64,000 bases of DNA from Clostridia bacterium (lineage in GTDB: Bacteria > Bacillota > Clostridia > Oscillospirales > Acutalibacteraceae): NCBI GenBank assembly GCA_029226955.1, contig JAQXZA010000137.1, positions 13,005 through 77,004 of the forward strand, written 5' to 3'. This document shows, one piece after another, positions 10,390 to 45,560 of the stretch. The notes beneath the pieces are model-generated. The model did not search any database and was not told where the DNA came from. It worked only from the letters and a program-made list of their open reading frames with translations. Position numbers and translations under genes: made by a program. Positions within the stretch are counted from its first letter, which is position 1, and every line of letters begins with the position of its first letter.

Positions 10390-11340
10390 ATGAAAAAGAT
10401 TTTTACAGCACTTCTTATTGCGGCTCTTGCAGCAGCAACATTCACAGGTTGCAGCAGTAACAACTCAAATTCAAATTCATCAGCACCGTCAACAAGCTCA
10501 ACAGCTTCAACAGCAAGCGACGCTTCAACAAACTCAACAGAATCAGCAGGTTCTCAGGACAAAATCACAGGTACAGTAAACGTTGTAACAAGAGAACAGG
10601 GTTCAGGTACAAGAGATGCTTTCACAGAACTTACAGGTGTTCTTGAAAAGGGCAGTGACGGTTCAAAGACAGATAAAACATTTTCAGGTGCAGTAACACT
10701 CAATGGTACACAGGCAGTTATGAGTAACGTTTCCGGCGACAAGGCTGCAATCGGATATATTTCACTCGGTTCAGTCAACGATACGGTTAAGGCTGTTAAG
10801 ATTGAAGGTGTTGCACCGTCAACAGCAACAGTAAAAGACGGAACATACAAACTCCAGCGTCCTTTTAACATTGTTACAAAATCAGGACTCAGCGAAGTTG
10901 CTCAGGATTTCGTTAACTACATTATGAGTGCTGACGGTCAGAAGGTTATTGAAGACAACAAATATGTATCGATTGACTCAAATGCAAAGGCATACGAAGG
11001 AAAGAAACCAAGCGGCACAATCACAATCGACGGTTCAACATCAGTAGGACCTGTTATGGAAAAACTCAAAGAGGCTTATGCCGCTGTAAACCCGAATGCA
11101 ACAATTCAGTTCCAGACATCAGACTCATCAACAGGTATCTCATCTGCAATCAACGGAAGTGTTGACATCGGTATGTCATCAAGAGATCTTAAAGATACAG
11201 AAACAGGCGTTACAGCTACAAAAATTGCTCTTGACGGTATCGCAGTAATCGTAAACAAAGAAAACACAACAGATGATCTTACAATCGAACAGATTAAGAA
11301 AATCTACACAGGCGAAGTTACAGACTGGGGCAACATTTAA
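10390..11340 (+). CDS. pstS: Phosphate ABC transporter substrate-binding lipoprotein PstS; domain order appears circularly permuted
   Basis: Lipobox FTGC, then a Ser/Thr/Asn-rich linker. The SGTR-containing segment (VVTREQGSGTRDAF...AIGYISLG...GVAP) precedes the GSTS segment (IDGSTSVGP...DIGMSSRDLKD...DGIAVIVN...IYTGEVTDW). Confidence 0.88.
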   Translation: MKKIFTALLIAALAAATFTGCSSNNSNSNSSAPSTSSTASTASDASTNSTESAGSQDKITGTVNVVTREQGSGTRDAFTELTGVLEKGSDGSKTDKTFSGAVTLNGTQAVMSNVSGDKAAIGYISLGSVNDTVKAVKIEGVAPSTATVKDGTYKLQRPFNIVTKSGLSEVAQDFVNYIMSADGQKVIEDNKYVSIDSNAKAYEGKKPSGTITIDGSTSVGPVMEKLKEAYAAVNPNATIQFQTSDSSTGISSAINGSVDIGMSSRDLKDTETGVTATKIALDGIAVIVNKENTTDDLTIEQIKKIYTGEVTDWGNI

Positions 11341-11369
11341 CAGTAAAATAAAGACTTGATTAACGGCGG

Positions 11370-11393
11370 AGGCACACTGCAACAGGTGTGCCT
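11370..11393 (+). other. Stem-loop without a U-tract between pstS and pstC (possible mRNA-stabilising or processing hairpin)
   Basis: 8-bp stem aggcacac / gtgtgcct with loop tgcaacag. No T-run follows. Confidence 0.4.
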
Positions 11394-11449
11394 ATGCTTG
11401 TATAATATGAAAAATCAGCTTTAATGTGTTTGAAAGGATTGATTAAATA

Positions 11450-12313
11450 ATGAAGAAGGTTACGGAAGTAGGAATGAAGGTGCTGTTCTTCATTTGTGCT
11501 TTGATGTCTGTAATCGCAGTAGCACTTATATGTATATTCCTGTTTGCAAACGGAGTGCCTGCAATGGCGAAAATAGGACTTTTTGACTTTCTCTGTGGTA
11601 CAAACTGGGCACCGGCAAATGTTCCGGCAAGTTACGGAATTTTGCCTATGATTGTCGGAAGTCTTTATGTAACGGCAGGTGCGTTGATAATAGGCGTTCC
11701 GATAGGACTGTTTACAGCAGTATTTATGGCACACTATTGTCCAAAGCCTCTTTATAAGATTCTTAAACCCGCAATTCAGCTTCTTGCCGGAATACCGTCG
11801 GTAGTTTACGGATTTTTCGGACTTGTTGTTTTAGTACCGTTTGTACGCAATAACTTCGGCGGAACAGGCAGCAGTATTCTTACAGCCTCAATCATACTCG
11901 GAATAATGATACTTCCTACAATAATAGAAGTTACGGAATCATCACTTCGTGCAGTTCCGCACAGCTACTATGAAGGAGCAGTAGGTCTTGGTGCAAGCCA
12001 CGAAAGAGCAGTATTTGCAACTGTTCTTCCGGCAGCAAAGTCAGGTGTAACAGCCGGTATTGTACTTGGTATCGGTCGTGCAATCGGTGAAACAATGGCA
12101 GTTCAGCTTATAGTCGGCAACCAGACAGTAATTCCGAACAGCATACTCGACGGTGTTCGTACCCTTACAACAAATATCGTTATGGAAATGGGTTATTCAA
12201 CAGGTCTGCACCGTGAGGCACTTATAGCAACAGCGGTTGTACTTTTTGTATTCATACTTCTTATCAATCTCTGTTGTTCCGCACTCAAAAACAAAAGCAA
12301 TGCAAAAGCATAA
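11450..12313 (+). CDS. pstC: Phosphate ABC transporter permease PstC
   Basis: Polytopic permease with an EAA-type loop (EGAVGLGASHERAVFATVLPAAKSG). Position in the pst operon fits. Confidence 0.93.
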   Translation: MKKVTEVGMKVLFFICALMSVIAVALICIFLFANGVPAMAKIGLFDFLCGTNWAPANVPASYGILPMIVGSLYVTAGALIIGVPIGLFTAVFMAHYCPKPLYKILKPAIQLLAGIPSVVYGFFGLVVLVPFVRNNFGGTGSSILTASIILGIMILPTIIEVTESSLRAVPHSYYEGAVGLGASHERAVFATVLPAAKSGVTAGIVLGIGRAIGETMAVQLIVGNQTVIPNSILDGVRTLTTNIVMEMGYSTGLHREALIATAVVLFVFILLINLCCSALKNKSNAKA

Positions 12314-12325
12314 GAGGTGAGAATT

Positions 12326-13264
12326 ATGGAAATAAATACATCTGTACCAAAAGTTCCGTCGGAAGCCGAAAAGGAATTTGACGCATCATCAATTCAGGGA
12401 ATAAACACAATGACTTTCAGAAAAAGGCTTAAACTCTATAAAAACAAGCCTGGTTCACTTATTCTCCTGATACTCGTAATGCTTGCAACGATTATCACAG
12501 TATCGGCATTGATATTCATTATCGGCTATATTCTCATAAACGGAATACCGCATCTTACCCCCGAATTTTTCTCGTGGGATTATAACTCTGAAAACCTGTC
12601 CTGTGTTCCAGCATTGCTGAATACAATTATGCTGACGCTTATCGGACTTGTTATTGCAGTACCGCTCGGAATATTCTCGGCAATATATCTTGTTGAGTAT
12701 GCGAAAAAAGGCAACAAGTTAGTAAAAGTAATACGTATGACAGCCGAAACACTTTCAGGTGTACCATCAATCGTATATGGTCTTTTCGGTATGCTGTGCT
12801 TTAACTATGCACTCGGCTGGGGATATTCTTTAATTGCGGGTGCTTTTACGGTTGCAATTATGATACTTCCGCTCATTATGCGTACAACAGAGGAGGCACT
12901 TCTCACTGTTCCGGACAGTTTCCGTGAGGGCAGTTTCGGACTCGGTGCCGGCAAACTCAGAACTGTATTCAGAATTGTTCTTCCTTCGGCTGTTCCGGGT
13001 ATTCTTTCGGGTGTAATTCTTGCAATCGGCAGAATTGTCGGTGAAACAGCAGCCCTTCTTTATACATCAGGTTCAAGTGCAGAGCTTGCAAAAGGTATTG
13101 CAGACCCGGGCAGAACGCTTGCACTTCATATGTATGTACTTTCAAACGAGGGACTTCATACAGACCAGGCTTATGCAACGGCGGTTGTTCTTCTTATACT
13201 TGTACTTGCAATCAACACACTTTCTGCCGTAATTGCAAAGAAGGTTGCCAAAGGCAATCAATAA
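12326..13264 (+). CDS. pstA: Phosphate ABC transporter permease PstA
   Basis: EAA loop EGSFGLGAGKLRTVFRIVLPSAVPG. ATG 12326 lies 8 nt after the SD AAGAGG. The track start at GTG 12317 overlaps the SD. Confidence 0.92.
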   Translation: MEINTSVPKVPSEAEKEFDASSIQGINTMTFRKRLKLYKNKPGSLILLILVMLATIITVSALIFIIGYILINGIPHLTPEFFSWDYNSENLSCVPALLNTIMLTLIGLVIAVPLGIFSAIYLVEYAKKGNKLVKVIRMTAETLSGVPSIVYGLFGMLCFNYALGWGYSLIAGAFTVAIMILPLIMRTTEEALLTVPDSFREGSFGLGAGKLRTVFRIVLPSAVPGILSGVILAIGRIVGETAALLYTSGSSAELAKGIADPGRTLALHMYVLSNEGLHTDQAYATAVVLLILVLAINTLSAVIAKKVAKGNQ

Positions 13265-13349
13265 ATAATGCGTAATTATTGTGCGAAACATCAGTTTTAT
13301 ATCCGCATATCAAGATTAACTGAGTTATTAACGAAAGGAACAGAATTTT

Positions 13350-14174
13350 ATGTCAGAGAAAAGTACTGCTGCTATAAAGACACAAAAGGATAAAATAGAT
13401 AAAAAAGCCATCAAGTCGGTAAATCCCGATAAATTCTTAATCGAAAAGGCAAACCTCTACTACGGCAATTTTCACGCACTCAAAGATATAAACCTTGCAC
13501 TTCCGTCAAACGAAATTACAGCATTTATCGGGCCGAGCGGTTGCGGTAAATCAACACTTCTTAAATCACTCAACAGAATGAATGACCTTGTTGAAGGCTG
13601 TAAGATTACGGGAACATTTCTCCTTGACGGCGAGGATATTTACGGCGATATGGACGTAAACCTTCTCAGAAAAAGAGTAGGTATGGTATTCCAGAAACCT
13701 AACCCGTTCCCGATGAGCGTTTATGATAATATTGCTTATGGCCCACGTACACACGGAGTACATTCAAAGATTAAACTTGACGAAATTGTCGAAAAATCTC
13801 TCAGACAGGCTGCAATATGGGACGAAGTAAAAGACCGTCTTAAAAAATCCGCACTTGGTCTTTCAGGCGGACAGCAGCAGCGTCTTTGTATCGCAAGAGC
13901 TATTGCCGTACAGCCTGATGTAATTCTTATGGACGAACCGACAAGTGCCCTTGACCCGATTTCAACTTCTAAAATAGAAGACCTTGCATTAGAACTCAAA
14001 AAGGATTATACTATAATTATGGTAACCCATAATATGCAACAGGCTTTACGTATATCCGACAGAACGGCGTTTTTCTTACTCGGTGAAGTTGTCGAATACG
14101 GCGAAACCGAACAGATTTTCTCTATGCCAAAGGAAAAACGCACGGAAGACTACATCACAGGTCGTTTCGGCTGA
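13350..14174 (+). CDS. pstB: Phosphate ABC transporter ATP-binding protein PstB
   Basis: Walker [10 protein letters not shown], signature LSGGQQQR, Walker B ILMDEP, and PstB-typical [16 protein letters not shown]. Confidence 0.96.
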
Positions 14175-14210
14175 TTTATCGGATTTATATTTGAGGGAGG
14201 CTTATATATT

Positions 14211-14861
14211 ATGAGAAACCGTTTTGATTCACAGCTTGAAAATCTTAACAACTCGCTTATTGAAATGGGCGGACTTGTTGAACAGGCAATAAGCAACGCA
14301 TATTCGGCTCTTATCAGTCAGGACGCAAAGCAAGCAGAAAAAAATATCAAGTTTGATGTTGTTATCAACGAAAAAGAACGTGAAATTGAAGGTCTTTGTA
14401 TGAAACTTCTTTTGCAACAGCAGCCTGTTGCAAAAGACTTGCGACTTATCTCGGCAGTTCTGAAAATGATAACAGACCTTGAAAGAATAGGAGATCACGC
14501 TCAGGATATTTCTGAAATTGTTCTCTTCCTTTCATCACAGCAATACATCAAAAAACTTGAACATATTTCGAGAATGGCTCAGATTACCGCAAAAATGGTA
14601 ACCGACAGCATTGACGCTTTTGTAAAGCGTGACATAATGCTTGCACAAAGAGTATGCGATACAGACGATACCGTTGACGACCTTTTTGTTACGGTAAAGA
14701 ACGAACTTATTTCACTGATTAACGAGAATGTCAAGAACGGCGAGCAGGCTATGGATTTTCTTATGGTTGCAAAATATTTTGAAAGAATAGGCGACCACGC
14801 TGTCAATGTCGGTGAATGGGTTATCTTTTCAATTACAGGAAAGCACAAGGAGTTTGATTAA
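14211..14861 (+). CDS. phoU: Phosphate signalling complex protein PhoU
   Basis: Two PhoU repeats with ERIGDHA motifs (DLERIGDHAQD and FERIGDHAVN). Confidence 0.94.
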   Translation: MRNRFDSQLENLNNSLIEMGGLVEQAISNAYSALISQDAKQAEKNIKFDVVINEKEREIEGLCMKLLLQQQPVAKDLRLISAVLKMITDLERIGDHAQDISEIVLFLSSQQYIKKLEHISRMAQITAKMVTDSIDAFVKRDIMLAQRVCDTDDTVDDLFVTVKNELISLINENVKNGEQAMDFLMVAKYFERIGDHAVNVGEWVIFSITGKHKEFD

Positions 14862-14863
14862 AT

Positions 14864-15532
14864 TTGCTTATTTATATAGCCGAAGACGACGAAAACATAA
14901 GAGAAATTGAATGTTATGCACTCAAAAACAGCGGATATGAAACTGAGGGATTTTGTGACGGTGCGGAGCTTATGGACGCACTTTCACAGAATATTCCCGA
15001 CCTTGTCATACTTGACATAATGATGCCCGGTGAGGACGGACTCTCCATTCTGAAAAAAATCAGAAATTCAGACAACCTCAAAAATATTCCGGTAATGATG
15101 ATTACGGCAAAAACAACGGAAATGGATAAGGTAAAGGGTCTTGATACCGGTGCGGACGATTATATCACAAAACCATTCGGAGTTATGGAATTTGTTTCAA
15201 GGGTTCGTGCCTTGCTGAGAAGAACCTCACGACAGGAGAGCGAAAACACTCTTGAATACAAAAACATTAAAATTGACGATAAAAAACACAGAGTAACGGT
15301 TGATAATGCCGAGTGTGTTCTTACCTTTAAGGAATATGAACTTTTGAAACTTCTTCTTTCAAATCAGGGAATAGTCCTCAGCCGTGAAAAGATTATGAAC
15401 AAGGTGTGGGGTTTTGAGTATGAGGGCGAAAGCCGTACCGTTGATATGCACATAAAAACCCTGCGTCAGAAGTTGGGCGACAGCGGTTCGGAAATAAAGA
15501 CAATTCGTAATGTCGGATATAAAATAGGCTGA
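14864..15532 (+). CDS. phoP: OmpR-family response regulator (PhoP/PhoB-like)
   Basis: Receiver domain (DLVILDIMMPGEDG, phospho-acceptor Asp context) plus a winged-helix domain (TVDMHIKTLRQKL...IRNVGYK). TTG start. Adjacent to phoU and phoR. Confidence 0.88.
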   Translation: MLIYIAEDDENIREIECYALKNSGYETEGFCDGAELMDALSQNIPDLVILDIMMPGEDGLSILKKIRNSDNLKNIPVMMITAKTTEMDKVKGLDTGADDYITKPFGVMEFVSRVRALLRRTSRQESENTLEYKNIKIDDKKHRVTVDNAECVLTFKEYELLKLLLSNQGIVLSREKIMNKVWGFEYEGESRTVDMHIKTLRQKLGDSGSEIKTIRNVGYKIG

Positions 15533-15544
15533 TTTTCTTTAAAG

Positions 15545-15582
15545 ACGGGTGGACGCAGTAAAAATTGTGTCCGCCCGTTTTT
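15545..15582 (+). terminator. Intrinsic terminator between the response regulator and histidine kinase genes
   Basis: 10-bp GC-rich stem acgggtggac / gtccgcccgt (one G-U pair), 14-nt loop, then TTTTT. Confidence 0.75.
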
Positions 15583-15584
15583 AG

Positions 15585-15612
15585 TTAGGAATTAGGAGTT
15601 AGGAGTTAGGAA
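15585..15612 (+). repeat. Four tandem heptamers TTAGGAR (SD-like AGGAG x3) immediately upstream of phoR
   Basis: Read directly: ttaggaa ttaggag ttaggag ttaggaa. Lies within a 50-nt C-free tract (15579-15628) that includes the phoR start codon. Confidence 0.85.
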
Positions 15613-15618
15613 TTATTG

Positions 15619-17322
15619 ATGTTGAGGACAATAAGTCATAGGGAGGAATCTTTTTTGGAAAATAAAGTAAATACTCATATGTTTGTAATGGGTGTGTTTT
15701 CAATTATAATAACAATAATTTTTTCGGTAATGGCATTTTATACAGCGTTTGAAAATCAGGTCACTTTTGACCTGTCCGAACGCACAGATGAAATAGCGAC
15801 AACATATGAATATTTGCATAACAAAGATGAATTGCAGAAATTTTCTAATGATAAACTCCGTATAACACTCATACAATCCGACGGAACAGTTCTGTTTGAA
15901 AGCAGCAGTAATGATACCGATAAAATGGAAAATCATCTTGAACGACCTGAGGTTCAGGAGGCATTAAAAAACGGCAAGGGAACATCAAACCGCTATTCCG
16001 AAACAATGAATACTGATGTTTTTTATTGTGCAAAAAAACTTGCCGACGGAAATATTATAAGACTGTCACAGACAACCAACATAATGTACTCCTTTTTCTC
16101 AAATGTAATTCCTTATCTTGTACTTCTTATGATAATTATGCTCGCAGTTTCGATATTTCTCTCGGTTATTCTTACCAAAAAACTTGTCAAACCTATTAAC
16201 AGAATAGCGTCCGAACTTGAAAATATTGATGAAGACACAGAAAACGACGAAAAAATCTATGACGAGTTATTGCCGTTTATCAGCGAAATAAGGCACAGAA
16301 AAGAGGAAATACGTGAACGTCTTAAACTTGAAAGACAGGAAAAAAACAAACTCAGTGCGGTTCTTACAAATATGTCTGACGGTATGATACTTGTTGACCA
16401 AAACAAAAACATTATGCTGTCAAGCCATAAGGCAGAACAAATACTCGGTTTTGATGATGATTATACAGGGAAAAACATAATATATGCTTCACGCAGAAAA
16501 GAACTTACCGACAGCATAAACGAGGCAATAAACGGAAAAGCAAATTCGTCCGAGATGAAAATAAACGACAAAATTTATCAGATTCGTTCAAATCCTATTA
16601 TTATAAGCGGTGTTCAGTCGGCAACAATGTGCCTTATGATTGACGTTACGGAAAAATACCGTATGGAACAGATAAAACAGGAATTTACCGCAAACGTTTC
16701 CCACGAACTTAAAACACCGCTCACATCAATTTCGGGTTATGCTGAAATGATAGAATCGGGCATAGCACAAAATGACGATGTAAAGAATTTTGCGGGCAAA
16801 ATCCGCCTTGAATCCGAACGTATGATAACTCTTGTAAAGGATATTATCAGACTTTCAGAGCTTGACGAATCAGATGTCCGTGCAGAATTTGAGGAAATTT
16901 CACTTCTCGGAACGGCACAGGAGGCAGTAAAGCCGCTTTACGATTCAGCGGAAAAAAAGAACATATCTCTTACAGTAAGCGGTACTGACAGCAGAATTAC
17001 TGCTAACAGATATATGATAAACGAACTTATATACAATCTTTGTGATAATTCAATAAGATACAATAAGCCAAACGGAAAAGTATCAGTAAAAATTTCAGAC
17101 AAGACGGTTACAGTTTCGGATACAGGTATCGGTATTCCTGAGGAATGTCAGAAAAGAATTTTTGAACGCTTTTACCGTGTTGATAAAAGCCGTTCAAAGC
17201 AGACGGGCGGCACAGGACTTGGACTTGCAATAGTTAAACATATAGCAATACAGCACAATGCTGAGATAAAAGTCGAAAGCGAACTTGACAAGGGAACTTC
17301 AATATCAGTGATTTTTAAATAA
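15619..17322 (+). CDS. phoR: Phosphate-sensing histidine kinase PhoR-like (TM, PAS, HisKA, HATPase_c)
   Basis: H-box VSHELKTPLTSISGY, N-box NLCDNSIRYN, G-boxes DTGIGIP and GGTGLGLAIVK. Start is ambiguous among TTG 15616, ATG 15619 and ATG 15679. Confidence 0.88.
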   Translation: MLRTISHREESFLENKVNTHMFVMGVFSIIITIIFSVMAFYTAFENQVTFDLSERTDEIATTYEYLHNKDELQKFSNDKLRITLIQSDGTVLFESSSNDTDKMENHLERPEVQEALKNGKGTSNRYSETMNTDVFYCAKKLADGNIIRLSQTTNIMYSFFSNVIPYLVLLMIIMLAVSIFLSVILTKKLVKPINRIASELENIDEDTENDEKIYDELLPFISEIRHRKEEIRERLKLERQEKNKLSAVLTNMSDGMILVDQNKNIMLSSHKAEQILGFDDDYTGKNIIYASRRKELTDSINEAINGKANSSEMKINDKIYQIRSNPIIISGVQSATMCLMIDVTEKYRMEQIKQEFTANVSHELKTPLTSISGYAEMIESGIAQNDDVKNFAGKIRLESERMITLVKDIIRLSELDESDVRAEFEEISLLGTAQEAVKPLYDSAEKKNISLTVSGTDSRITANRYMINELIYNLCDNSIRYNKPNGKVSVKISDKTVTVSDTGIGIPEECQKRIFERFYRVDKSRSKQTGGTGLGLAIVKHIAIQHNAEIKVESELDKGTSISVIFK

Positions 17323-17331
17323 GAATTTTTT

Positions 17332-17367
17332 ATCTTCCCCGCAATATGCAGGGAAGATATATTTTTT
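17332..17367 (+). terminator. Rho-independent terminator after phoR
   Basis: Stem atcttccc / gggaagat, followed by atatttttt. Confidence 0.75.
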
Positions 17368-17490
17368 GTTAAACAAGAAGAAATTGTTTTTACAAAAATG
17401 TAACATCTTAAAATATGAAAATGCCTTGATATTATTTCTGTTATGGAGTAAAATGAATAATTGTAAAAAGAAAATTAAAGGAGTAATATA

Positions 17491-18927
17491 ATGGTATTTG
17501 CAGATTTGTTTTTTCTGTACTTTTTTTTGCCTTTGTGCCTGATTTCATATTTCGTATGCAAAAAGATAAAGAATAAAAATACAGTGCTTGTTGTTTTTTC
17601 ACTGATTTTTTATGCGTGGGGCGAACCTGTATGCGTACTTCTCCTTGTATTCAGTGCGTTTATTAACTGGTATCTTGCACTTGTTATCGGGAAATTCCGT
17701 GGGAAACGGGGAGCAAAAATGGCTGTTGCGGGTGCGGTTATTATCGACCTTGCATTTTTGATTGTCTTTAAATACAGCGGATTTCTGGTTGAAAACTTTA
17801 ACGTTTTTTTCCATACAAGTCTTCCTGTTCCGCAGATTCAGCTTCCTATCGGAATAAGTTTCTTTACATTTCAGGCAATTTCCTACATAATGGACTGTTA
17901 CTGGGAAACCGTTGAACCACAGAAACATTTCAAGAATTTCTTGTTGTATCTTTCTTTGTTTCCACAGCTTGTTGCGGGTCCTATCGTGCGTTACAGCGTT
18001 ATCGAAAAAGAAATTACAGACCGCCGCTCTACCGCTGTTGATGTAAGCGAGGGTGCAATGCGTGTAATTATCGGACTCGGAAAGAAAGTAATTATCGCAA
18101 ACAATCTTTACAGCATTGTAACTCAGTTTTTCGGCAGTGAAAGCACTCCTGTCGATATTTCAAACCTCTCGTTTCTCGGAACGTGGTACACAGTAATTAT
18201 GTACTCACTGTATGTTTACTTTGATTTCAGCGGATATTCAGATATTGCAATAGGTCTTGGAAGAATGTTCGGATTCCATTTTGACGAAAACTTCAAATAT
18301 CCGTTTATATGCAAGACAATTACTGAATTTTGGCAGAGATGGCATATTTCACTCAGTTCATTTTTCAGAGATTATCTTTTCTATGTTCCGATTTTTGGCA
18401 AGCCACGTAAATACCTTAATCTTTTGCTTGTATGGTTCTGTACGGGATTCTGGCACGGTGCGGCGTGGAACTTCATTTTCTGGGGACTTTATTACTTCCT
18501 GTTCCTGTTGCTCGAAATAAAAATCGGTAAAAAGCGTCTGAAAAAATGGCCTGTATGGCTGTCGCATATTTACAGTAAAATTGTAATTGTTATAGGTTTC
18601 GGAATATTCTGTTTTACGGATTTGAATCAGCTCGGAAAATTCTTCCTCAACATCAGCGGAATAAGTATGCTTACAAACGGAAATTCCTTTGGCGACATAC
18701 TCACGTGGAACTCTTTCCAAAACAACATAATACTTATTGCAGCCGCAATTATTGCGTCCTTGCCTGTACTTCCGAAGATTAAATACTTCTTTACAAGCTG
18801 GGGCAATAATACGGTTTACGCTGTCGGAAAGATTGCCGGAACGGTTGCCTGTGCAGCGATGCTAATTATCATCAGTATTCTTCTTGTTGATTCAACAAAC
18901 AATCCGTTCCTTTATTTCCGTTTCTGA
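17491..18927 (+). CDS. MBOAT-family membrane O-acyltransferase (AlgI/DltB-like)
   Basis: Polytopic protein with MBOAT signatures FWQRWHISLSSFFRDYLF and GFWHGAAWNF (conserved His). AGGAG SD. Confidence 0.9.
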   Translation: MVFADLFFLYFFLPLCLISYFVCKKIKNKNTVLVVFSLIFYAWGEPVCVLLLVFSAFINWYLALVIGKFRGKRGAKMAVAGAVIIDLAFLIVFKYSGFLVENFNVFFHTSLPVPQIQLPIGISFFTFQAISYIMDCYWETVEPQKHFKNFLLYLSLFPQLVAGPIVRYSVIEKEITDRRSTAVDVSEGAMRVIIGLGKKVIIANNLYSIVTQFFGSESTPVDISNLSFLGTWYTVIMYSLYVYFDFSGYSDIAIGLGRMFGFHFDENFKYPFICKTITEFWQRWHISLSSFFRDYLFYVPIFGKPRKYLNLLLVWFCTGFWHGAAWNFIFWGLYYFLFLLLEIKIGKKRLKKWPVWLSHIYSKIVIVIGFGIFCFTDLNQLGKFFLNISGISMLTNGNSFGDILTWNSFQNNIILIAAAIIASLPVLPKIKYFFTSWGNNTVYAVGKIAGTVACAAMLIIISILLVDSTNNPFLYFRF

Positions 18928-18950
18928 GTTATGTATAAAGGAGAGAAAAT

Positions 18951-20414
18951 ATGGACAACAGAACAACTCAACATAAACCTCAGGCAAAAAAAAGTTTTAA
19001 TTCTCTTAAAAGAAAAGGTGTTGAACACGGTTTTTCAGTAATTTCAATCGCAATTCTTATGGTAGTTTTTTTCCTTACTGCTATATTTTTACTTGTTTTT
19101 CCACGTTCAACCGTTTCAAATATCGAAAAAAGAAAACTTGCAAAATTTCCTGAATTTTCACTTCAATCATATTTTTCGGGAGCATTTACTGCCGGAATAA
19201 CAAACTATTATGACGATACCGTTCCTTACCGTGACGACTTTAAAAATATGGGTAATAACTTTAAGTCTGTTTTCGGATTTCATACTGATGATGAAGTCAA
19301 GGTTATCGGTAAGCCGATTTCGGTTGTTTCCGAGCCGGAAAGCAAACCCGAAAGTAAACCAAGCAAAAACGAAACAAGCAATACAAACAGCAATTCCGAG
19401 TTAAGCAATACTGAACAGAGTTCACAGGTATCGGAAGAATCAAAACCGAAAGACTATACTGTCGAAGACCCTGACGCTTCTTACGAAAACGGTATGATAG
19501 TAGTAAAACAGGACGGTCATTATCGTGCGTTAGAGCTTTTCGGCGGTGGCAGCGGAAACAATTATGTAAAGGCACTTAATGCTTTTCACAAGGATTTAGG
19601 CGACAGTGTAAAGATATATTCTATGATTGCACCGCTTGCAAGCGAATATTACACACCGTCAAACTATTCACAATATAATTCAAGTCAGAAAAAATGCTTT
19701 GAAAGTATTGCGTCAAGACTTGATGACGGCATTATTTCGGTAGATATTACAGATGTACTTGCAAAGCATACGGAAGAACCGATTTATTGTCGTACCGACC
19801 ACCACTGGCAGCCGCTTGGTGCATATTATGCGGCACAGGCATTTGCGTCAGCCGCCGGAGTTGATTTCAAGGACATAAGCACCTTTACCAAAAAGGAAAA
19901 CGAAGGTTTTGTCGGCACAATGTACGCATTCTCAGGTGACGCAAATATTCTCAATGACCCTGAAACCTTTACTTATTACATTCCGCCAAATATTGACCAG
20001 TGTAAAACCTATTACTATGACACTGCCTTTAATTACACGGGAACAGGCAATTTCTTCAATATAGTAGATACACCGAACTCTTACCTTGTATTTATGGGCG
20101 GAGATGAACAGATTGTCAAGGTCAAGACAAATGTCAAGAACGGCAGAAAACTCTGTATCGTAAAGGACAGCTACGGCAATGCCGAACCGCCTTATTATAT
20201 GAATGGTTTTGAAGAAATTTATGTTGTCGATATGAGATACTTTGACCTCAACCTTGTTGACTTTGTAAAACAGATGGGTGTAACCGACCTTCTCTTTACA
20301 ATGGTTTCATATTCAGCAGTAGGTGATAATGCCGATAATCTTGAAAACCTCAGAACACAGGTAAAAGGACAAAAAATCGTTGATGAGGCACTCACCGCAA
20401 AAGATGAAGATTAA
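18951..20414 (+). CDS. DHHW-motif protein (AlgJ/AlgX/DltD-like extracytoplasmic acyl-transfer partner), N-terminally anchored
   Basis: Literal motif CRTDHHWQPLGAYYAAQ. One N-terminal TM helix, then an acidic Ser/Pro/Lys-rich linker (VSEPESKPESKPSKNETSN...). Sits immediately after the MBOAT gene. Confidence 0.85.
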   Translation: MDNRTTQHKPQAKKSFNSLKRKGVEHGFSVISIAILMVVFFLTAIFLLVFPRSTVSNIEKRKLAKFPEFSLQSYFSGAFTAGITNYYDDTVPYRDDFKNMGNNFKSVFGFHTDDEVKVIGKPISVVSEPESKPESKPSKNETSNTNSNSELSNTEQSSQVSEESKPKDYTVEDPDASYENGMIVVKQDGHYRALELFGGGSGNNYVKALNAFHKDLGDSVKIYSMIAPLASEYYTPSNYSQYNSSQKKCFESIASRLDDGIISVDITDVLAKHTEEPIYCRTDHHWQPLGAYYAAQAFASAAGVDFKDISTFTKKENEGFVGTMYAFSGDANILNDPETFTYYIPPNIDQCKTYYYDTAFNYTGTGNFFNIVDTPNSYLVFMGGDEQIVKVKTNVKNGRKLCIVKDSYGNAEPPYYMNGFEEIYVVDMRYFDLNLVDFVKQMGVTDLLFTMVSYSAVGDNADNLENLRTQVKGQKIVDEALTAKDED

Positions 20415-20428
20415 CAAATAAAAACAAT

Positions 20429-20460
20429 AAAGGCGTAAACAATATTAAGTTTACGCCTTT
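20429..20460 (+). other. Stem-loop between the DHHW and FkbH-like genes (weak or partial terminator)
   Basis: 12-bp stem aaaggcgtaaac / gtttacgccttt with an 8-nt loop. There is no T-run beyond the TTT that forms part of the stem. Confidence 0.45.
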
Positions 20461-20483
20461 AAATTAAATTCAGGAGGAATACA

Positions 20484-22277
20484 ATGACTGAACTTGAATA
20501 TCCTTTCGATTCCGAATATATCATCAAAAAAAGAAAATCACTCAAACGCACACTTCTTGCTGACGGCACAAAAAGACTGAAAAAGAAAATTGCTGTTTTC
20601 GGCGGTTCAACAACAAATGATATAGTTGTATATCTTGAACTGTTTTTACTGAATAACGGTATTGAACCCGAATTTTATCAGTCAGAATATGCACAGTACT
20701 GGCAGGACGCAATGTTTCCGAGTGATGAACTGCTGAATTTTAACCCTGATATTGTTTTTATTCACACAACAAACAGGAATATTACAAATTATCCTACGAC
20801 ATCTGACAGCAAAGAAACCGTTAATACCAAACTTGAAAACGAATATAATAAATTTCAGCAGATGTGGCAAAAAATAGCCGAAACCTACCATTGCCCGATA
20901 ATTCAGAATAACTTTGAAATGCCTTATTATCGTCTTATGGGCAACAAGGATTGTAGTGATTATCGTGGACGTTCAAATTTTGTCACACGACTTAATGACA
21001 AATTCTATGAATATGCCGAAAAAACAGAGGGCTTTTATATCAACGATATAAACTTTATTTCAGCGTCATACGGACTTAAAGCGTGGAGCAATCCTGAATA
21101 CTGGAATATGTACAAATACGCTATGTGCATTGACGCTATCCCTGAATTTTCCTTTAACCTTGCAAACATCATAAAGTCGGTATTCGGCAAAAACAAAAAG
21201 GCACTTGCACTCGACCTTGACAATACATTGTGGGGTGGAGTAGTCGGCGACGACGGTGTTGACGGAATACAGATAGGACAGGAAACAGGTGTTTCACAGT
21301 CTTATTATGAATTTCAGGAATATATAAAATCGCTTAAATCTCTCGGAGTAATTCTCACAGTATGTTCAAAAAATGACCACGAAAACGCAGTAGCCGGACT
21401 TAATCACCCGGAGGGAGCATTAAAACCCGACGACTTTATCATTATAAAAGCAAACTGGGAAAACAAGGACAGAAACATTCTTGAAATTGCGTCAGAACTG
21501 AATATTCTGCCCGATTCAATAGTTTTTGTTGACGACAACCCGGCAGAGCGTGAAATAGTAAAGGCACAAATTAAGGGAGTATCTGCACCGACTATGGATA
21601 GTGTAGAAAACTATATCACAACTCTTGACCGCAACGGATATTTTGAAGTTACGAATTTCAGCGAGGACGACCTCAAACGAAACGAAATGTACAAGGCTAA
21701 TGCACAGAGAGCGGCACAACAGGCGACTTTCGGCAATTATGAAGATTATCTTTTAAGCCTTGATATGACAGCGGTAATTGATGATTTTCTGCCCGTATAT
21801 TTGCAGCGTATAACACAGCTTTCCAACAAGAGCAATCAGTTTAACGTGACCACAAAGAGATACACACCGACAGAAATGGAAGAAGTCTTTGAGAACAATA
21901 ATTACATCAGACTTTACGGAAAACTTGTTGACAAATTCGGGGATAATGGTGTAGTATCAGTAGTAATAGGCAAAAAGGACAGCAAAGTTCTGAATATGGA
22001 ATTGTGGCTTATGAGTTGCCGTGTTCTCAAAAGGGATATGGAATTTGCAATGCTTGACAGACTTGTTGAACGCTGTCGTGAACAGGGTATAGAAACAATA
22101 AAAGGTTATTACTATCCTACCGCAAAAAATAATATGGTGCGTGACCTTTACGGCAGATTCGGCTTTGAAAAAATCAGCGAGGATTCTGACGGAAACACCG
22201 TATGGCAGCTTGATGTCGCATCATATCAGAATAAAAACCACGTTATTAAAGTTGAGGACAATTCCTCAATTCAATAA
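20484..22277 (+). CDS. HAD-IIIC / FkbH-like domain protein (597 aa), putative loader of the adjacent carrier protein
   Basis: HAD motif I LALDLDNTLWGGVVGDDG, motif II region LTVCSKN, motif IV FVDDNPAERE. C-terminal acyltransferase-like half. Followed 27 nt later by a carrier protein gene. Confidence 0.8.
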   Translation: MTELEYPFDSEYIIKKRKSLKRTLLADGTKRLKKKIAVFGGSTTNDIVVYLELFLLNNGIEPEFYQSEYAQYWQDAMFPSDELLNFNPDIVFIHTTNRNITNYPTTSDSKETVNTKLENEYNKFQQMWQKIAETYHCPIIQNNFEMPYYRLMGNKDCSDYRGRSNFVTRLNDKFYEYAEKTEGFYINDINFISASYGLKAWSNPEYWNMYKYAMCIDAIPEFSFNLANIIKSVFGKNKKALALDLDNTLWGGVVGDDGVDGIQIGQETGVSQSYYEFQEYIKSLKSLGVILTVCSKNDHENAVAGLNHPEGALKPDDFIIIKANWENKDRNILEIASELNILPDSIVFVDDNPAEREIVKAQIKGVSAPTMDSVENYITTLDRNGYFEVTNFSEDDLKRNEMYKANAQRAAQQATFGNYEDYLLSLDMTAVIDDFLPVYLQRITQLSNKSNQFNVTTKRYTPTEMEEVFENNNYIRLYGKLVDKFGDNGVVSVVIGKKDSKVLNMELWLMSCRVLKRDMEFAMLDRLVERCREQGIETIKGYYYPTAKNNMVRDLYGRFGFEKISEDSDGNTVWQLDVASYQNKNHVIKVEDNSSIQ

Positions 22278-22304
22278 AATAAACTTTTAAGGAGATATTC
22301 AAAA

Positions 22305-22550
22305 ATGGATACCAATACAATTTATGCAAAACTCAACAAGATTTTTCGTGATGTATTTGATGACGATTCAATCACAGTAAATCCAAAGACAACAGCAGAC
22401 GATATTGACGACTGGGACAGCCTTGAACACATCACACTTATTTCAGCGGTTGAACGTGAATTTAAGATGAAGTTCAAAATGGGCGAAATTTCTTCAATGA
22501 AGAATGTCGGTGAAATGGCTGACATTATTGCCGCAAGAACAAAGTTATAA
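22305..22550 (+). CDS. Acyl/peptidyl carrier protein (81 aa)
   Basis: Phosphopantetheine attachment context DDWDSLEHITLISAVEREF. AGGAGA SD. Confidence 0.85.
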   Translation: MDTNTIYAKLNKIFRDVFDDDSITVNPKTTADDIDDWDSLEHITLISAVEREFKMKFKMGEISSMKNVGEMADIIAARTKL

Positions 22551-22573
22551 TACATCACACAAATCATATAACA

Positions 22574-22612
22574 AAAGCGTTCCGTACACTTCAAAATGTC
22601 GGAACGCTTTTT
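22574..22612. terminator. Bidirectional terminator between the convergent ACP and yaaT genes
   Basis: 11-bp stem aaagcgttccg / cggaacgcttt. An A-run lies upstream and a T-run downstream. Confidence 0.8.
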
Positions 22613-22622
22613 CAGTTTATAT

Positions 22623-23492
22623 TCAGTCTTTTTCAAGTTTTCTCAGTTGTTCAAGTTCAGATTTTTCAACTTTAATTTGTGCGTCTTTGATAACTTTTAC
22701 GTCGCCGACCTTGAAATGTCTTGGGGCAGCGTCAGGCGACTTGTTCAACGAAATGGTAAGATTGCCTGTAATAAGATTCAGGTCAACAACCGTACCTTTG
22801 CCCTCAGGAGTGCTGACAATAGCACCAATTTTTGGAGTAGTTTTCAAAAGGTCTGTATAAGCCTCCTGTTCATATTTCAGACAGCACATAAGGCGACCGC
22901 AAGTACCCGAAATTTTCACAGGATTAAGTGACATTCCCTGTTCTTTTGCCATTTTTATTGACACAGGCTGAAAATCACCCAAAAACGTATTACAACAGAA
23001 CGGTCTGCCACATATTCCGATACCGCCGAGCATTTTTGACTCATCACGCACACCTATCTGACGAAGTTCAATTCTTGTTCTGAAAATATATGCAAGGTCT
23101 TTTACGAGGTCACGGAAATCAACACGTCCGTCAGCCGTAAAATAAAAAAGAATTTTGTTGTTGTCAAAGGTATATTCAACATTGACAAGTTTCATTTTGA
23201 GATTATGCTGTTCAATTTTCTTCACGCATATATCAAAAGCCTTTTTTTCTTTTTCACGGTTTTCGGCAACTTTTTTGAGGTCATCATCAGTGGCAACACG
23301 AATAATTTTTTTGAGCGGATATGAAATATCACTGTCATCAATATTTCTGTTTTCCATTGCGACTTCACCGCACTCAACCCCACGGCTTGTTTCAACGATA
23401 ACACGGTCACCGTTTTTGAAAATTTCACCGTCAGGGTCGAAATAATATATTTTTCCTACATCTCTGAATCTTACACCTATAATACAAGCCAT
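22623..23492 (-). CDS. ricT: PSP1-domain protein YaaT/RicT (stage 0 sporulation / RNase Y regulator complex)
   Basis: N-terminus GVRFRDVGKIYYFDP and the Cys cluster ICGRPFCCNTFL...CGRLMCCLKYE. Downstream of holB, as in Bacillus. Confidence 0.9.
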   Translation of the reverse strand: MACIIGVRFRDVGKIYYFDPDGEIFKNGDRVIVETSRGVECGEVAMENRNIDDSDISYPLKKIIRVATDDDLKKVAENREKEKKAFDICVKKIEQHNLKMKLVNVEYTFDNNKILFYFTADGRVDFRDLVKDLAYIFRTRIELRQIGVRDESKMLGGIGICGRPFCCNTFLGDFQPVSIKMAKEQGMSLNPVKISGTCGRLMCCLKYEQEAYTDLLKTTPKIGAIVSTPEGKGTVVDLNLITGNLTISLNKSPDAAPRHFKVGDVKVIKDAQIKVEKSELEQLRKLEKD

Positions 23493-43485: not shown

Positions 43486-43512
43486 TAACCGATAACTGAA
43501 AGAAGTGAATTT

Positions 43513-45558: not shown

Positions 45559-45560
45559 AA

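What the first reader, a model, noticed from the sequence alone, without database searches (positions are those of the whole stretch)
17491..22550. dlt-like surface acylation module: MBOAT + DHHW protein + FkbH-like loader + dedicated carrier protein
SEEN:
- Four consecutive same-strand genes with strong SDs.
- A DltB/AlgI-type MBOAT with WHISLSSFFRDY and FWHGAAW.
- An N-terminally anchored extracytoplasmic protein with a literal DHHW motif.
- A 597-aa HAD-IIIC/FkbH-like protein with DLDNTLWGG.
- An 81-aa carrier protein with a DSL phosphopantetheinylation site.

ESTABLISHED:
- In the Dlt pathway a carrier protein (DltC) is loaded by DltA. It hands its cargo to the MBOAT DltB, and an extracytoplasmic SGNH-like partner (DltD) completes transfer to teichoic acid.
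- FkbH-type enzymes load a glyceryl unit from 1,3-bisphosphoglycerate onto an ACP in polyketide pathways.

INFERENCE:
- This module has Dlt logic, but the adenylating ligase is replaced by an FkbH-like loader.
- It may therefore decorate a wall or extracellular glycopolymer with a non-D-alanyl, possibly glyceryl- or hydroxyacyl-type, ester delivered from a carrier protein rather than from acyl-CoA.
- I am not aware of a characterised example.

CAVEAT: a stem-loop without a clear U-tract (20429-20460) separates the two gene pairs, so they may be two transcription units.
Basis: partly seen in the sequence, partly recalled or inferred. Interest (0 to 1): 0.65.

Follow-up and report, generated by a model that had tools for sequence, protein, structure and literature searches.

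The report
Carrier-protein-fed cell-wall acylation operon
A four-gene operon from a pig-gut Clostridium-like bacterium pairs a membrane acyl-transfer machine with its own carrier protein and an FkbH-type loader, which predicts an undescribed glycerate-type ester on cell-surface polymers that is widespread in gut Firmicutes.

Summary
Four same-strand genes at 17491-22550 encode an MBOAT, a DHHW (PatB1-type SGNH-like) ectoprotein, a 597-aa FkbH-like protein and an 81-aa carrier protein. One promoter-like site and two terminator-like hairpins bracket them.

The gene pairs are co-conserved.
- Of 48 genome loci holding an FkbH-like homologue (51-89% identity) with at least 4 kb on both sides, 45 have the ACP and 38 have an MBOAT (35 within 5 kb).
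- There are two gene orders, each with a different MBOAT/SGNH lineage.
- The linkage recurs in a relative of only 33% identity.
- Window-type cassettes form one clade, keep no other neighbour in common, and often have 8-28 nt between the two pairs.

The MBOAT is PatA/AlgI-like: it carries the fused C-terminal FxYxxF acyl-shuttle motif and needs no DltX. The literature states that such systems lack carrier proteins. The loader keeps the HAD DxDxT motif and an invariant Cys in a GNAT-fold domain.

Best reading (inferred, untested): 1,3-bisphosphoglycerate gives glyceryl-S-ACP, which passes to MBOAT Tyr475, then DHHW Ser407, then a wall glycopolymer. Sister systems add a MaoC-like dehydratase plus an SDR, probably giving lactyl.

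I found no characterised example. This is a new variant of a known kind. Interest about 0.67.

The parts
17331..17367 (+). Terminator-like hairpin plus U-tract that ends the upstream phoR-like kinase gene. It marks the 5' boundary of the unit.
   Evidence: dG -23.6 kcal/mol, z = -5.1. Sequence.
17426..17454 (+). Promoter-like site (TTGATA, 17 nt, TAAAAT) 37 nt upstream of the MBOAT start codon.
   Evidence: 10 of 12 matches. This is a consensus match only.
17491..18927 (+). MBOAT, 478 aa. Catalytic-type His322 lies in FWHGAAW and His285 in WHISLS. The C-terminal acyl-shuttle motif is F473-L-Y475-F-R-F478.
   Evidence: Motif meaning comes from PMC12148441.
18951..20414 (+). DHHW-family (PatB1-type, SGNH-like) extracytoplasmic acyltransferase, 487 aa. 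It has an N-terminal TM anchor at 28-50, a Ser/Glu/Pro-rich linker, DHHW at 283-286, Ser407 in KDSYG, and D427-x-R429-Y.
   Evidence: (4nzk at 2e-93, PatB1 5v8d at 8e-6). Catalytic blocks from PMC9487903.
20428..20461 (+). Intra-operon hairpin of 13 bp with no U-tract on the + strand. It is probably an attenuator, stabiliser or processing element rather than a full terminator.
   Evidence: Structurally analogous but non-homologous hairpins occur in close relatives, and the element is absent where the spacer is 8-28 nt.
20484..22277 (+). FkbH-like loader, 597 aa. Residues ~1-235 form a degenerate SGNH-like domain. Residues ~238-395 form the HAD-IIIC phosphatase domain (D244, D246, T248, K296, D350/D351). 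Residues ~420-590 form a GNAT-fold domain with invariant S511-C512-R513.
22305..22550 (+). Dedicated acyl carrier protein, 81 aa. The phosphopantetheine site is Ser39 in DWDSLEH.
   Evidence: (2lml at 1e-20). It lies directly after the FkbH-like gene in 40 of 48 well-flanked loci.
22573..22612 (.). Bidirectional terminator-like hairpin (A-tract, GC stem, U5) between the ACP gene and the convergent ricT/yaaT gene. It marks the 3' boundary of the unit.
   Evidence: dG -19.8 kcal/mol, z = -7.6.

Best explanation
The four genes are one operon. It encodes a carrier-protein-dependent MBOAT-SGNH system that esterifies an extracytoplasmic glycopolymer, probably a teichoic-acid-like or secondary wall polymer, with a small hydroxyacyl group, most likely glycerate.

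Proposed steps (all inferred):
1. The FkbH-like enzyme takes the glycolytic acyl phosphate 1,3-bisphosphoglycerate. Its HAD domain (D244/D246) removes the 3-phosphate.
2. The glyceryl group is held as a thioester on Cys512 in the GNAT-fold domain.
3. It passes to the phosphopantetheine arm on Ser39 of the dedicated ACP. No ATP-dependent ligase is needed because the substrate is already an activated acyl phosphate.
4. Glyceryl-S-ACP docks on the cytoplasmic face of the MBOAT. With His322, the MBOAT moves the acyl group through its tunnel onto Tyr475 of its own C-terminal FLYFRF motif on the outer face.
5. The membrane-anchored DHHW protein takes the group onto Ser407 (oxyanion hole D427-x-R429) and transfers it to a polymer hydroxyl.

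Shown here: gene content, catalytic motifs, folds, operon structure and co-conservation.
Inferred: the substrate, ACP-to-MBOAT hand-over, and the acceptor.
For: Co-conservation:
- Of 48 genome loci with at least 4 kb on both sides of an FkbH-like homologue (51-89% identity), 45 have the ACP, 40 of them directly downstream. 38 have an MBOAT, 35 within 5 kb.
- There are two gene orders. One is MBOAT-DHHW-FkbH-ACP. The other is FkbH-ACP-(MaoC+SDR or VOC)-MBOAT-SGNH-like. The MBOATs of the two orders are only ~30% identical.
- The linkage recurs at 33% identity in an environmental contig: AT3-MBOAT-x-FkbH-ACP-MaoC-SDR-MBOAT-ALGX.
- Window-type loaders form one clade. Nothing else in their flanks is conserved.
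- The same cassette sits in a different context in L001 and L009, behind TagF-like glycerophosphotransferases and a Stealth protein.

Operon structure: spacers of 8-28 nt in at least 10 cassettes; RNA contigs cross the spacer; terminator-like hairpins only at the two ends.

Loader:
- TIGR01686 FkbH scores 266 bits against a cut-off of 147.
- DxDxT and SCR are present in 76 of 76 homologues.
- The AF2 model has pLDDT 89.5. Residues 1-395 match 3slr (TMt 0.90), and the C-terminal domain is a GNAT fold with Cys512 between beta4 and alpha3.
- FkbH loads glycerate or glyceryl units from 1,3-BPG onto carrier proteins (PMC3679948; PMC8609519).

Membrane half:
- F[LI]YxxF tail and WHG are present in 21 of 21 window-type MBOATs and 35 (tail) and 36 (WHG) of 37 type-B MBOATs.
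- The acyl-Tyr shuttle mechanism comes from PMC12148441.
- DHHW catalytic blocks are present.

Conservation gradient: loader and ACP, then MBOAT, then DHHW. This fits constant donor chemistry and variable acceptors.

Accessory enzymes in sister systems all belong to thioester-acting families: HadB/MaoC-like, FabG-like and methylmalonyl-CoA-epimerase-like.
Against: - There is no biochemical evidence for any step.
- PatA, the characterised MBOAT with the same fused shuttle motif, uses acetyl-CoA. The literature states that non-Dlt MBOAT/SGNH systems lack carrier proteins.
- Some FkbH-ACP pairs have no MBOAT within 10 kb: L017, L064, L089.
- An E. siraeum-type sub-clade has DHHW-DHHW-FkbH-ACP with no adjacent MBOAT.
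- The window holds no polymer-synthesis genes next to the cassette, so the acceptor is unknown.
- Calling the acyl group glyceryl rests on homology to polyketide/NRPS FkbH enzymes that lack the N-terminal domain.
- Assigning Cys512 as the catalytic Cys rests on invariance, its position in the fold, and my recollection of OzmB work. I made no alignment to a characterised FkbH.
Confidence: 0.55

Rival explanations
1. The architecture and flow are the same (loader to ACP to MBOAT to DHHW to polymer), but the acyl group is not glycerate. The three-domain FkbH-like enzyme would use another phosphorylated or acyl-phosphate precursor and deliver a different small acyl group, for example lactyl, a phosphoglyceryl-derived group, or another hydroxyacyl group.
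For: - The loader differs from canonical ~360-aa FkbH proteins by an extra SGNH-like N-terminal domain.
- It is annotated only as 'HAD-IIIC family phosphatase'.
- No characterised member is close. The only PDB relative is the uncharacterised BF1531.
- Sister systems clearly remodel the ACP-bound group with a MaoC-like dehydratase, an SDR or a VOC protein.
Against: - The TIGR01686 match spans the whole FkbH domain and is well above the cut-off.
- The HAD and Cys motifs are invariant.
- A beta-hydroxy-eliminating dehydratase plus a ketoreductase is exactly what would act on a 2,3-dihydroxypropanoyl thioester, so the sister systems fit a glyceryl starting point.
Confidence: 0.2
2. The two gene pairs are functionally independent and merely adjacent. 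The MBOAT/DHHW pair O-acetylates a polymer from acetyl-CoA, as PatA/PatB1 do. The FkbH-like/ACP pair makes glyceryl-ACP for a cytoplasmic pathway such as a glycerate-containing polymer backbone, a lipid, or N-acylation of a sugar nucleotide.
For: - PatA with the same FxYxxF tail auto-acetylates from acetyl-CoA.
- FkbH-ACP pairs occur without a nearby MBOAT: next to housekeeping genes in L017, next to nonulosonic-acid-like genes in L064, and next to GT4/deacetylase genes in L089.
- The E. siraeum-type cassette lacks an adjacent MBOAT.
Against: - 79% co-localisation within a few kb across 51-89% identity.
- Two independent gene orders with two MBOAT lineages.
- Recurrence at 33% identity.
- Clade-wise co-inheritance with no other conserved neighbour.
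- Translationally tight spacers.
- No cytoplasmic acyltransferase or condensing enzyme in the cassette that could use acyl-ACP.
Confidence: 0.15
3. The system acylates something other than a glycopolymer, such as a membrane glycolipid, a lipoprotein or a secreted protein.
For: - No polymer-synthesis genes flank the cassette in the window.
- Flanks are not conserved across cassettes.
Against: - Characterised DHHW and AlgX-family proteins act on polysaccharides.
- In L001 and L009 the cassette directly follows TagF-like and Stealth genes.
- Type-B loci lie in glycosyltransferase-rich regions, for example L033.
Confidence: 0.07

Closest known systems
Dlt pathway (DltA, DltC, DltB, DltX, DltD; D-alanylation of teichoic acids)
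   Same: - A dedicated small carrier protein is encoded with an MBOAT and an extracytoplasmic SGNH-like transferase.
- The predicted flow is thioester on Ppant, then MBOAT, then acyl-Tyr, then Ser of the SGNH protein, then polymer.
   Different: - No adenylating ligase. The loader is FkbH-like (HAD phosphatase plus a GNAT-like Cys domain).
- The MBOAT is not a DltB equivalog (154 bits against a 375 cut-off).
- The acyl-shuttle FxYxxF motif is fused to the MBOAT, so there is no DltX.
- The partner is a DHHW protein, not DltD.
- The cargo is predicted to be a neutral hydroxyacyl group, not D-Ala.
PatA/PatB, PatA1/PatB1, AlgI/AlgJ/AlgX, WssH/WssI and CcsH/CcsI O-acetylation systems
   Same: - MBOAT with catalytic His and a C-terminal FxYxxF tail.
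- A DHHW/AlgX-type partner with Ser, DxRY and DHHW blocks (PatB1 family; 4nzk is a close homologue of the window protein).
   Different: - Those systems use acetyl-CoA and are described as lacking a carrier protein (PMC12148441).
- Here a loader and an ACP are co-inherited with the pair.
FkbH/OzmB-type glyceryl-ACP loaders of polyketide and NRPS pathways (methoxymalonyl-ACP, tetronate, and glycerate loading modules)
   Same: - Full-length TIGR01686 FkbH domain.
- HAD DxDxT motif.
- Invariant Cys.
- A dedicated ACP immediately downstream.
   Different: - An extra degenerate SGNH-like N-terminal domain, shared with B. fragilis BF1531 (3slr).
- No FkbK/I/G-type oxidation or methylation genes, and no KS or PKS/NRPS.
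- The product is predicted to go to a membrane acyltransferase rather than to an assembly line.
PDB 4nzk (Eubacterium siraeum EUBSIR_00411) and PDB 3slr (B. fragilis BF1531), both uncharacterised structural-genomics entries
   Same: - 4nzk matches the window DHHW ectodomain at E = 2e-93.
- 3slr matches residues 18-395 of the loader at E = 3e-55.
- Near-identical 4nzk homologues are encoded in a DHHW-DHHW-FkbH-ACP cassette.
   Different: - Neither has an assigned function.
- The E. siraeum-type cassette has no adjacent MBOAT.

Membership tests
Dlt D-alanylation system | DltA-type adenylating D-alanine-carrier-protein ligase in the operon | tested here: not met
   The four ORFs are an MBOAT, a DHHW protein, an FkbH-like protein and an ACP. 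The flanking genes are phoR-like and ricT. There is no AMP-binding gene in the unit.
Dlt D-alanylation system | DltB equivalog MBOAT | tested here: not met
   TIGR04091 scores 154 bits against a cut-off of 375. Only the MBOAT core aligns to DltB structures (6bug, 1e-20).
Dlt D-alanylation system | Separate DltX microprotein that carries the FxYxxF acyl-shuttle motif | tested here: not met
   Intergenic gaps are 23, 69 and 27 nt, which leaves no room for a small ORF. [quoted passage not shown]
Dlt D-alanylation system | DltD-family SGNH partner | tested here: not met
   The partner hits the DHHW (2e-48) and ALGX families and gives no DltD hit.
Dlt D-alanylation system | Dedicated carrier protein encoded with the MBOAT | tested here: met
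   An 81-aa PP-binding protein with Ser39. NCBIfam gives only generic ACP hits and no DltC model.
PatA/PatB1-type MBOAT-SGNH O-acetyltransferase pair | MBOAT with the invariant His and a C-terminal FxYxxF acyl-shuttle motif | tested here: met
   His322 (FWHGAAW) and F473-L-Y-F-R-F478. Both are conserved in 21 of 21 cassette MBOATs. Motif definition.
PatA/PatB1-type MBOAT-SGNH O-acetyltransferase pair | DHHW-family partner with a nucleophilic Ser, Block II DxRY and Block V DHHW | tested here: met
   Ser407 (KDSYG), D427-M-R-Y and DHHW 283-286. PF14286 at 2e-48. PatB1 5v8d at 8e-6 and 4nzk at 2e-93. Block definitions.
PatA/PatB1-type MBOAT-SGNH O-acetyltransferase pair | Acetyl-CoA as donor, with no carrier protein | not testable with these tools
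   The donor cannot be read from sequence. The co-inherited loader and ACP argue against it.
FkbH family (glyceryl-ACP-forming HAD-IIIC enzymes) | Full-length FkbH domain above the curated threshold | tested here: met
   TIGR01686 scores 265.9 bits against 146.65, covering residues 238-562 and model positions 3-320 of 323.
FkbH family (glyceryl-ACP-forming HAD-IIIC enzymes) | HAD catalytic motifs (DxDxT, Lys, DD) | tested here: met
   D244, D246, T248, K296 and D350 are invariant in 20 diverse members. DxDxT[LI]W is present in 76 of 76. The fold matches the 3slr phosphatase domain.
FkbH family (glyceryl-ACP-forming HAD-IIIC enzymes) | Conserved Cys that carries the acyl thioester | tested here: inconclusive
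   S511-C512-R513 is invariant and sits at the acyl/pantetheine site of the GNAT fold. I made no alignment to a biochemically mapped FkbH/OzmB Cys.
FkbH family (glyceryl-ACP-forming HAD-IIIC enzymes) | Dedicated ACP partner | tested here: met
   The ACP lies directly downstream in 40 of 48 well-flanked loci and in relatives at 31-36% identity.
FkbH family (glyceryl-ACP-forming HAD-IIIC enzymes) | 1,3-bisphosphoglycerate as substrate, glyceryl-ACP as product | not testable with these tools
   This needs an enzyme assay.
Methoxymalonyl-ACP pathway (FkbG-K type) | Acyl-ACP dehydrogenases and an O-methyltransferase next to FkbH and the ACP | tested here: not met
   The window cassette has none. 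Compare the bafilomycin gene list.

The most novel reading that the evidence does not exclude
Gut and rumen Clostridia, and some other phyla, carry a widespread uncharacterised pathway that esterifies cell-envelope glycopolymers with glycerate. Sister systems with a MaoC-like dehydratase plus an SDR would use lactate. The acyl group would be drawn directly from the glycolytic acyl phosphate 1,3-bisphosphoglycerate through an FkbH-like loader and a dedicated ACP. This would be the first carrier-protein-dependent MBOAT system outside Dlt. It would also be a new chemical class of Gram-positive wall modification, and it would assign functions to PDB entries 4nzk, 3slr and probably 2lml.
Probability: 0.4. 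Interest if true: 0.8.

Novelty: new variant of a known kind. Interest (0 to 1): 0.67.

Why it matters
MBOAT-SGNH systems (Dlt, Pat, Alg, Wss) shape antibiotic and lysozyme resistance, autolysin control, phage adsorption and immune recognition. The current model divides them into Dlt, which uses a carrier protein, and all the rest, which use acyl-CoA.

This module would break that division. It would show that an MBOAT with a fused shuttle motif can be fed by a carrier protein. It would also predict a new ester, glycerate or lactate, on surface polymers of abundant gut and rumen Firmicutes that are poorly studied.

The loader family is large: 14,416 clusters at 50% identity. Three orphan structural-genomics entries would gain a functional context. 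The hypothesis is directly testable with a simple in vitro ACP-loading assay and with ester analysis of cultured carriers such as Eisenbergiella tayi DSM 26961 or E. siraeum.

Tried and rejected
- The first homology search timed out and I repeated it.
- Ten literature searches found no paper that links an FkbH/HAD-IIIC loader and an ACP to a polymer-modifying MBOAT. I combined FkbH, HAD-IIIC, MBOAT, SGNH, carrier protein, DHHW, glyceryl-ACP, lactyl-ACP and related terms. The only co-mentions are aeruginosin/suomilide clusters, where the two act separately.
- The Dlt mechanism paper, PMC10664464, is not held.
- I looked for TagF-like, Stealth or AT3 genes in the window using the L001 neighbours as queries. 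There were none, so the acceptor cannot be read from this window.
- Rfam on 17000-23000 gave only a sub-threshold RefA9 hit over the terminator. There is no riboswitch in the 169-nt leader and no known family for the internal hairpin.
- No public RNA run holds this exact sequence. Two RNA runs hold relatives at 85-95% identity, available only as assembled contigs. Co-transcription is therefore supported only weakly, and DNA carry-over cannot be excluded.
- I considered that the internal hairpin is a terminator that splits two operons. I rejected this as the main reading: there is no U-tract, at least 10 relatives have 8-28 nt spacers, and contigs cross the spacer.
- I considered that the N-terminal domain of the loader is an active esterase. 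This is unlikely. The fold is SGNH-like, but the Block I Ser is replaced by T, A or G in some members and no Block V His is conserved.
- I could not model an ACP-MBOAT-DHHW complex. The structure tool predicts single chains only, and model coordinates are not exposed.

Full report
**1. The observation**

- 17491-18927, 478 aa
- 18951-20414, 487 aa
- 20484-22277, 597 aa
- 22305-22550, 81 aa

Each has a strong Shine-Dalgarno sequence.

Profile scans give these assignments:
- MBOAT: PF03062, 7e-25.
- DHHW: PF14286, 2e-48, with a weaker ALGX hit.
- FkbH domain: TIGR01686, 266 bits against a cut-off of 147, plus HAD-IIIC and FkbH_N.
- PP-binding: at threshold, plus generic ACP models.

The quoted motifs are at MBOAT 284-289 and 320-326, DHHW 283-286, loader 244-248 and ACP 38-40.

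The stem-loop at 20428-20461 is real. It has dG -19 kcal/mol and z = -6.4, with no U-tract on the + strand.

**2. The transcription unit**

- A hairpin plus U-tract at 17331-17367 ends the upstream phoR-like gene.
- A promoter-like site lies at 17426-17454.
- A bidirectional terminator-like hairpin at 22573-22612 follows the ACP gene, before the convergent ricT gene.
- The window context is housekeeping: pstSCAB, phoU, phoB/phoR-like genes upstream, and ricT and holB downstream. There are no polymer-synthesis genes.
- The source looks like a pig-gut metagenome.
- The nearest genomes are uncultured Clostridia, Acutalibacteraceae and Ruminococcus MAGs.

**3. Are the two gene pairs linked?**

The loader family is very large. 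It has 14,416 clusters at 50% identity with E <= 1e-3, and the top 120 clusters at 90% identity are 78-93% identical to the window protein.

An 80%-identical relative (L001) has the same four genes in the same order and sizes (478/487/597/81 aa). Its flanks are entirely different: two TagF-like glycerophosphotransferases, a Stealth protein and an AT3 protein lie upstream.

I fetched 80 genome loci at 51-89% identity and searched their ORFs with the window proteins. Of 48 loci with at least 4 kb on both sides:
- 45 have the ACP, 40 of them directly downstream of the loader.
- 38 have an MBOAT, 35 within 5 kb.
- 14 have a DHHW protein.

Two architectures appear:
- Type A, the window type, about 23 loci: MBOAT-DHHW(-DHHW)-FkbH-ACP.
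- Type B, about 34 loci: FkbH-ACP, then optional tailoring genes, then a different MBOAT lineage, then one to five copies of a ~340-aa N-anchored SGNH-like protein. The type-B MBOAT is ~30% identical to the window MBOAT and also ends in FIYxxF. The SGNH-like partner has no Pfam family, or only a weak GDSL_2 hit.

Further evidence for linkage:
- In a neighbour-joining tree of the loaders, all type-A sequences but one form a single clade.
- An all-against-all comparison of the flanks of 23 type-A cassettes found no other conserved neighbour.
- The linkage persists in very distant relatives. A 33%-identical loader from an environmental contig lies in AT3-MBOAT-x-FkbH-ACP-MaoC-SDR-MBOAT-ALGX. Relatives at 31% and 36% identity keep FkbH-ACP-MaoC(-SDR).

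The four genes are therefore a self-contained, co-inherited module.

**4. One operon or two?**

- In at least 10 type-A cassettes the DHHW-FkbH spacer is only 8-28 nt and holds just an SD.
- In the window's closest relatives the spacer is longer (64-222 nt). It usually holds a strong hairpin of unrelated sequence, again without a U-tract. This suggests an internal attenuator or stabiliser that tunes the ratio of membrane to cytoplasmic components.
- Assembled contigs from two RNA-seq runs of relatives at about 85-95% identity cross the spacer: X11 at 19857-22700 and X22 at 20331-20551. This is weak support, because these are contigs and DNA carry-over is possible.

**5. The membrane half**

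The MBOAT aligns to DltB only over the core (6bug, 1e-20). It fails the DltB equivalog cut-off, with 154 bits against 375.

It ends in F473-L-Y475-F-R-F478. Anderson et al. (PMC12148441) showed three things:
- Bacterial MBOATs paired with SGNH proteins carry a C-terminal FxYxxF 'acyl shuttle'.
- The Tyr of that motif is auto-acylated. PatA does this from acetyl-CoA.
- DltB lacks the motif and borrows it from the microprotein DltX.

All 21 type-A MBOATs end in the F[LI]YxxF tail and keep WHG; of the 37 type-B MBOATs, 35 have the tail and 36 keep WHG.

The partner protein has a TM anchor, a low-complexity linker, and the PatB1-type catalytic blocks: Ser407, D427-x-R-Y and DHHW. It matches the uncharacterised E. 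siraeum structure 4nzk at 2e-93 and B. cereus PatB1 at 8e-6.

Architecturally this half is PatA/PatB1-like, not DltB/DltD-like.

**6. The cytoplasmic half**

An alignment of 20 diverse loaders at 30-60% identity shows these invariant residues: D244, D246, T248, K296, N297, D350 and S511-C512-R513. DxDxT[LI]W and SCR are each present in 76 of 76 locus homologues.

The AF2 model has pLDDT 89.5. It has three domains:
- Residues 1-395 superpose on B. fragilis BF1531. This is PDB 3slr, a 'phosphatase domain' with Mg and tungstate, matched at TMt 0.90.
- The C-terminal ~170 residues form a GNAT fold, with RimI and Ard1 among the hits at E ~1e-7. Cys512 lies between beta4 and alpha3. From general knowledge of the fold, that is where GNATs hold the pantetheine and thioester.
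- The N-terminal 235 residues, modelled alone (pLDDT 92.8), form a degenerate SGNH/GDSL-like fold. It has no conserved Ser or His, so it is probably non-catalytic.

FkbH enzymes and domains load a glyceryl or glycerate unit derived from 1,3-bisphosphoglycerate onto carrier proteins (PMC3679948; PMC8609519).

The ACP is not a DltC by any model. It matches the orphan NMR structure 2lml at 1e-20. Across loci it is nearly as conserved as the loader.

**7. Tailoring genes in sister systems**

The tailoring genes support a hydroxyacyl cargo.
- In 13-17 type-B loci a MaoC/HadB-like dehydratase and a FabG-like SDR lie between the ACP and the MBOAT.
- In 13 loci a VOC protein lies there instead. Its best hit is methylmalonyl-CoA epimerase.
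- All of these are thioester-acting families.

A beta-hydroxy-eliminating dehydratase plus a ketoreductase acting on 2,3-dihydroxypropanoyl-S-ACP would give pyruvoyl-ACP and then lactyl-ACP. I recall the same logic from FkbH-DH-KR loading modules, but I could not verify it in the held library. The window cassette has no tailoring genes, so an unmodified glyceryl group is the simplest prediction.

**8. Mechanism proposed (inference)**

1. 1,3-BPG is dephosphorylated at C3 by the HAD domain.
2. Its acyl group is captured on Cys512.
3. It is passed to Ppant-Ser39 of the ACP.
4. The MBOAT, with His322, relays it to Tyr475 at the outer face.
5. DHHW Ser407 takes it.
6. It is transferred to a polymer hydroxyl.

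An acyl phosphate substrate explains why no adenylating ligase is present. The conservation gradient runs from loader and ACP, to MBOAT, to DHHW. This fits fixed donor chemistry with diversifying acceptors.

The acceptor is unknown. TagF-like and Stealth neighbours in L001 and L009 hint at a teichoic-acid-like polymer.

**9. What does not fit**

- FkbH-ACP pairs occur without an MBOAT within 10 kb: L017 beside housekeeping genes, L064 beside nonulosonic-acid-like genes, and L089 beside GT4/deacetylase genes and a PPTase. The pair can therefore feed other acceptors, or its partners are unlinked.
- Near-identical homologues of the protein crystallised as 4nzk lie in [443-aa DUF308 membrane protein]-DHHW-DHHW-FkbH-ACP. 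That membrane protein is not an MBOAT. L019 and L052 look the same. How the acyl group would cross the membrane in these cassettes is open.
- The 80 loci are the best 80 of at least 598 matches, so the percentages describe relatives at 51% identity or above.

**10. Comparison with known systems, and novelty**

The module works like Dlt because it has a carrier-protein donor. It is built like PatA/PatB1, with a fused shuttle and a DHHW partner. It is loaded like a polyketide glyceryl-ACP pathway.

It fails four of the five defining Dlt features I tested. It meets the structural features of the Pat-type pair and of the FkbH family.

Ten literature searches found no characterised or even described example (and others).

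I rate it a new variant of a known kind. It is widespread and directly testable. My confidence is about 0.85 that the four genes are one functional unit, about 0.6 that the ACP feeds the MBOAT, and about 0.4-0.5 that the cargo is glycerate.

Noticed in passing
window 38856-49106 (+): A five-gene cluster: AAA_5/MoxR-like ATPase (370 aa), DUF5682 (807 aa), VWA_CoxE (377 aa), SWIM-finger protein (681 aa), and DUF4132 + HEAT protein (1183 aa). It looks like a MoxR-vWA-type system of unknown function.
   Followed up: no
window 20428-20461; L001 9901-10001; and the DHHW-FkbH spacers of L005, L006, L009 and L027: Close relatives keep a strong hairpin without a U-tract between the DHHW and FkbH genes, although the hairpin sequences are unrelated. 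More distant cassettes have only 8-28 nt there. This suggests a selected intra-operon attenuator or stabiliser.
   Followed up: partly
L091 3497-9597; L092; also L019 and L052: Near-identical homologues (94-96%) of the protein crystallised as PDB 4nzk are encoded in DHHW-DHHW-FkbH-ACP cassettes. A 443-aa DUF308 membrane protein precedes them, and it is not an MBOAT. No MBOAT lies within the flanks.
   Followed up: partly
L040 12027-19989; L061 12067-17116; L058 5753-6799; L023 13605-14603: The type-B partner is a ~340-aa N-anchored SGNH-like family with no Pfam or NCBIfam model. It has the motifs DVVYIGSSN and AHLN. It is present in up to six tandem or nearby paralogues per locus.
   Followed up: partly
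L058 3029-4178; L061 13119-13505; L087 10026-11175: Sister systems insert a MaoC/HadB-like dehydratase plus a FabG-like SDR, or a methylmalonyl-CoA-epimerase-like VOC protein, between the ACP and the MBOAT. This implies remodelling of the ACP-bound group, possibly glyceryl to lactyl or a C2 epimerisation.
   Followed up: partly
window 20484-21188 (loader residues 1-235): The FkbH_N domain is a degenerate SGNH/GDSL-like fold, with Foldseek hits to GDSL lipases, the OatA C-terminal domain and PatB. It has no conserved catalytic Ser or His. Its role in a cytoplasmic loader is unknown.
   Followed up: partly
window 10390-17322: The cassette lies directly downstream of a complete pstSCAB-phoU-phoB/phoR-like phosphate-sensing block. 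In L001 a convergent histidine kinase/response regulator pair follows it. I did not examine a possible regulatory link between phosphate status and wall-polymer decoration.
   Followed up: no
window 52359-56055 (+): A GerA-family protein is followed by a fused spore-permease/GerAC-like protein of 711 aa, so the organism is probably a spore former.
   Followed up: no
window 22539-22610 (+): A sub-threshold Rfam hit to the Enterococcus sRNA RefA9 (33 bits against a gathering score of 49, E = 0.03) overlaps the ACP terminator. It most likely reflects only the terminator hairpin.
   Followed up: no
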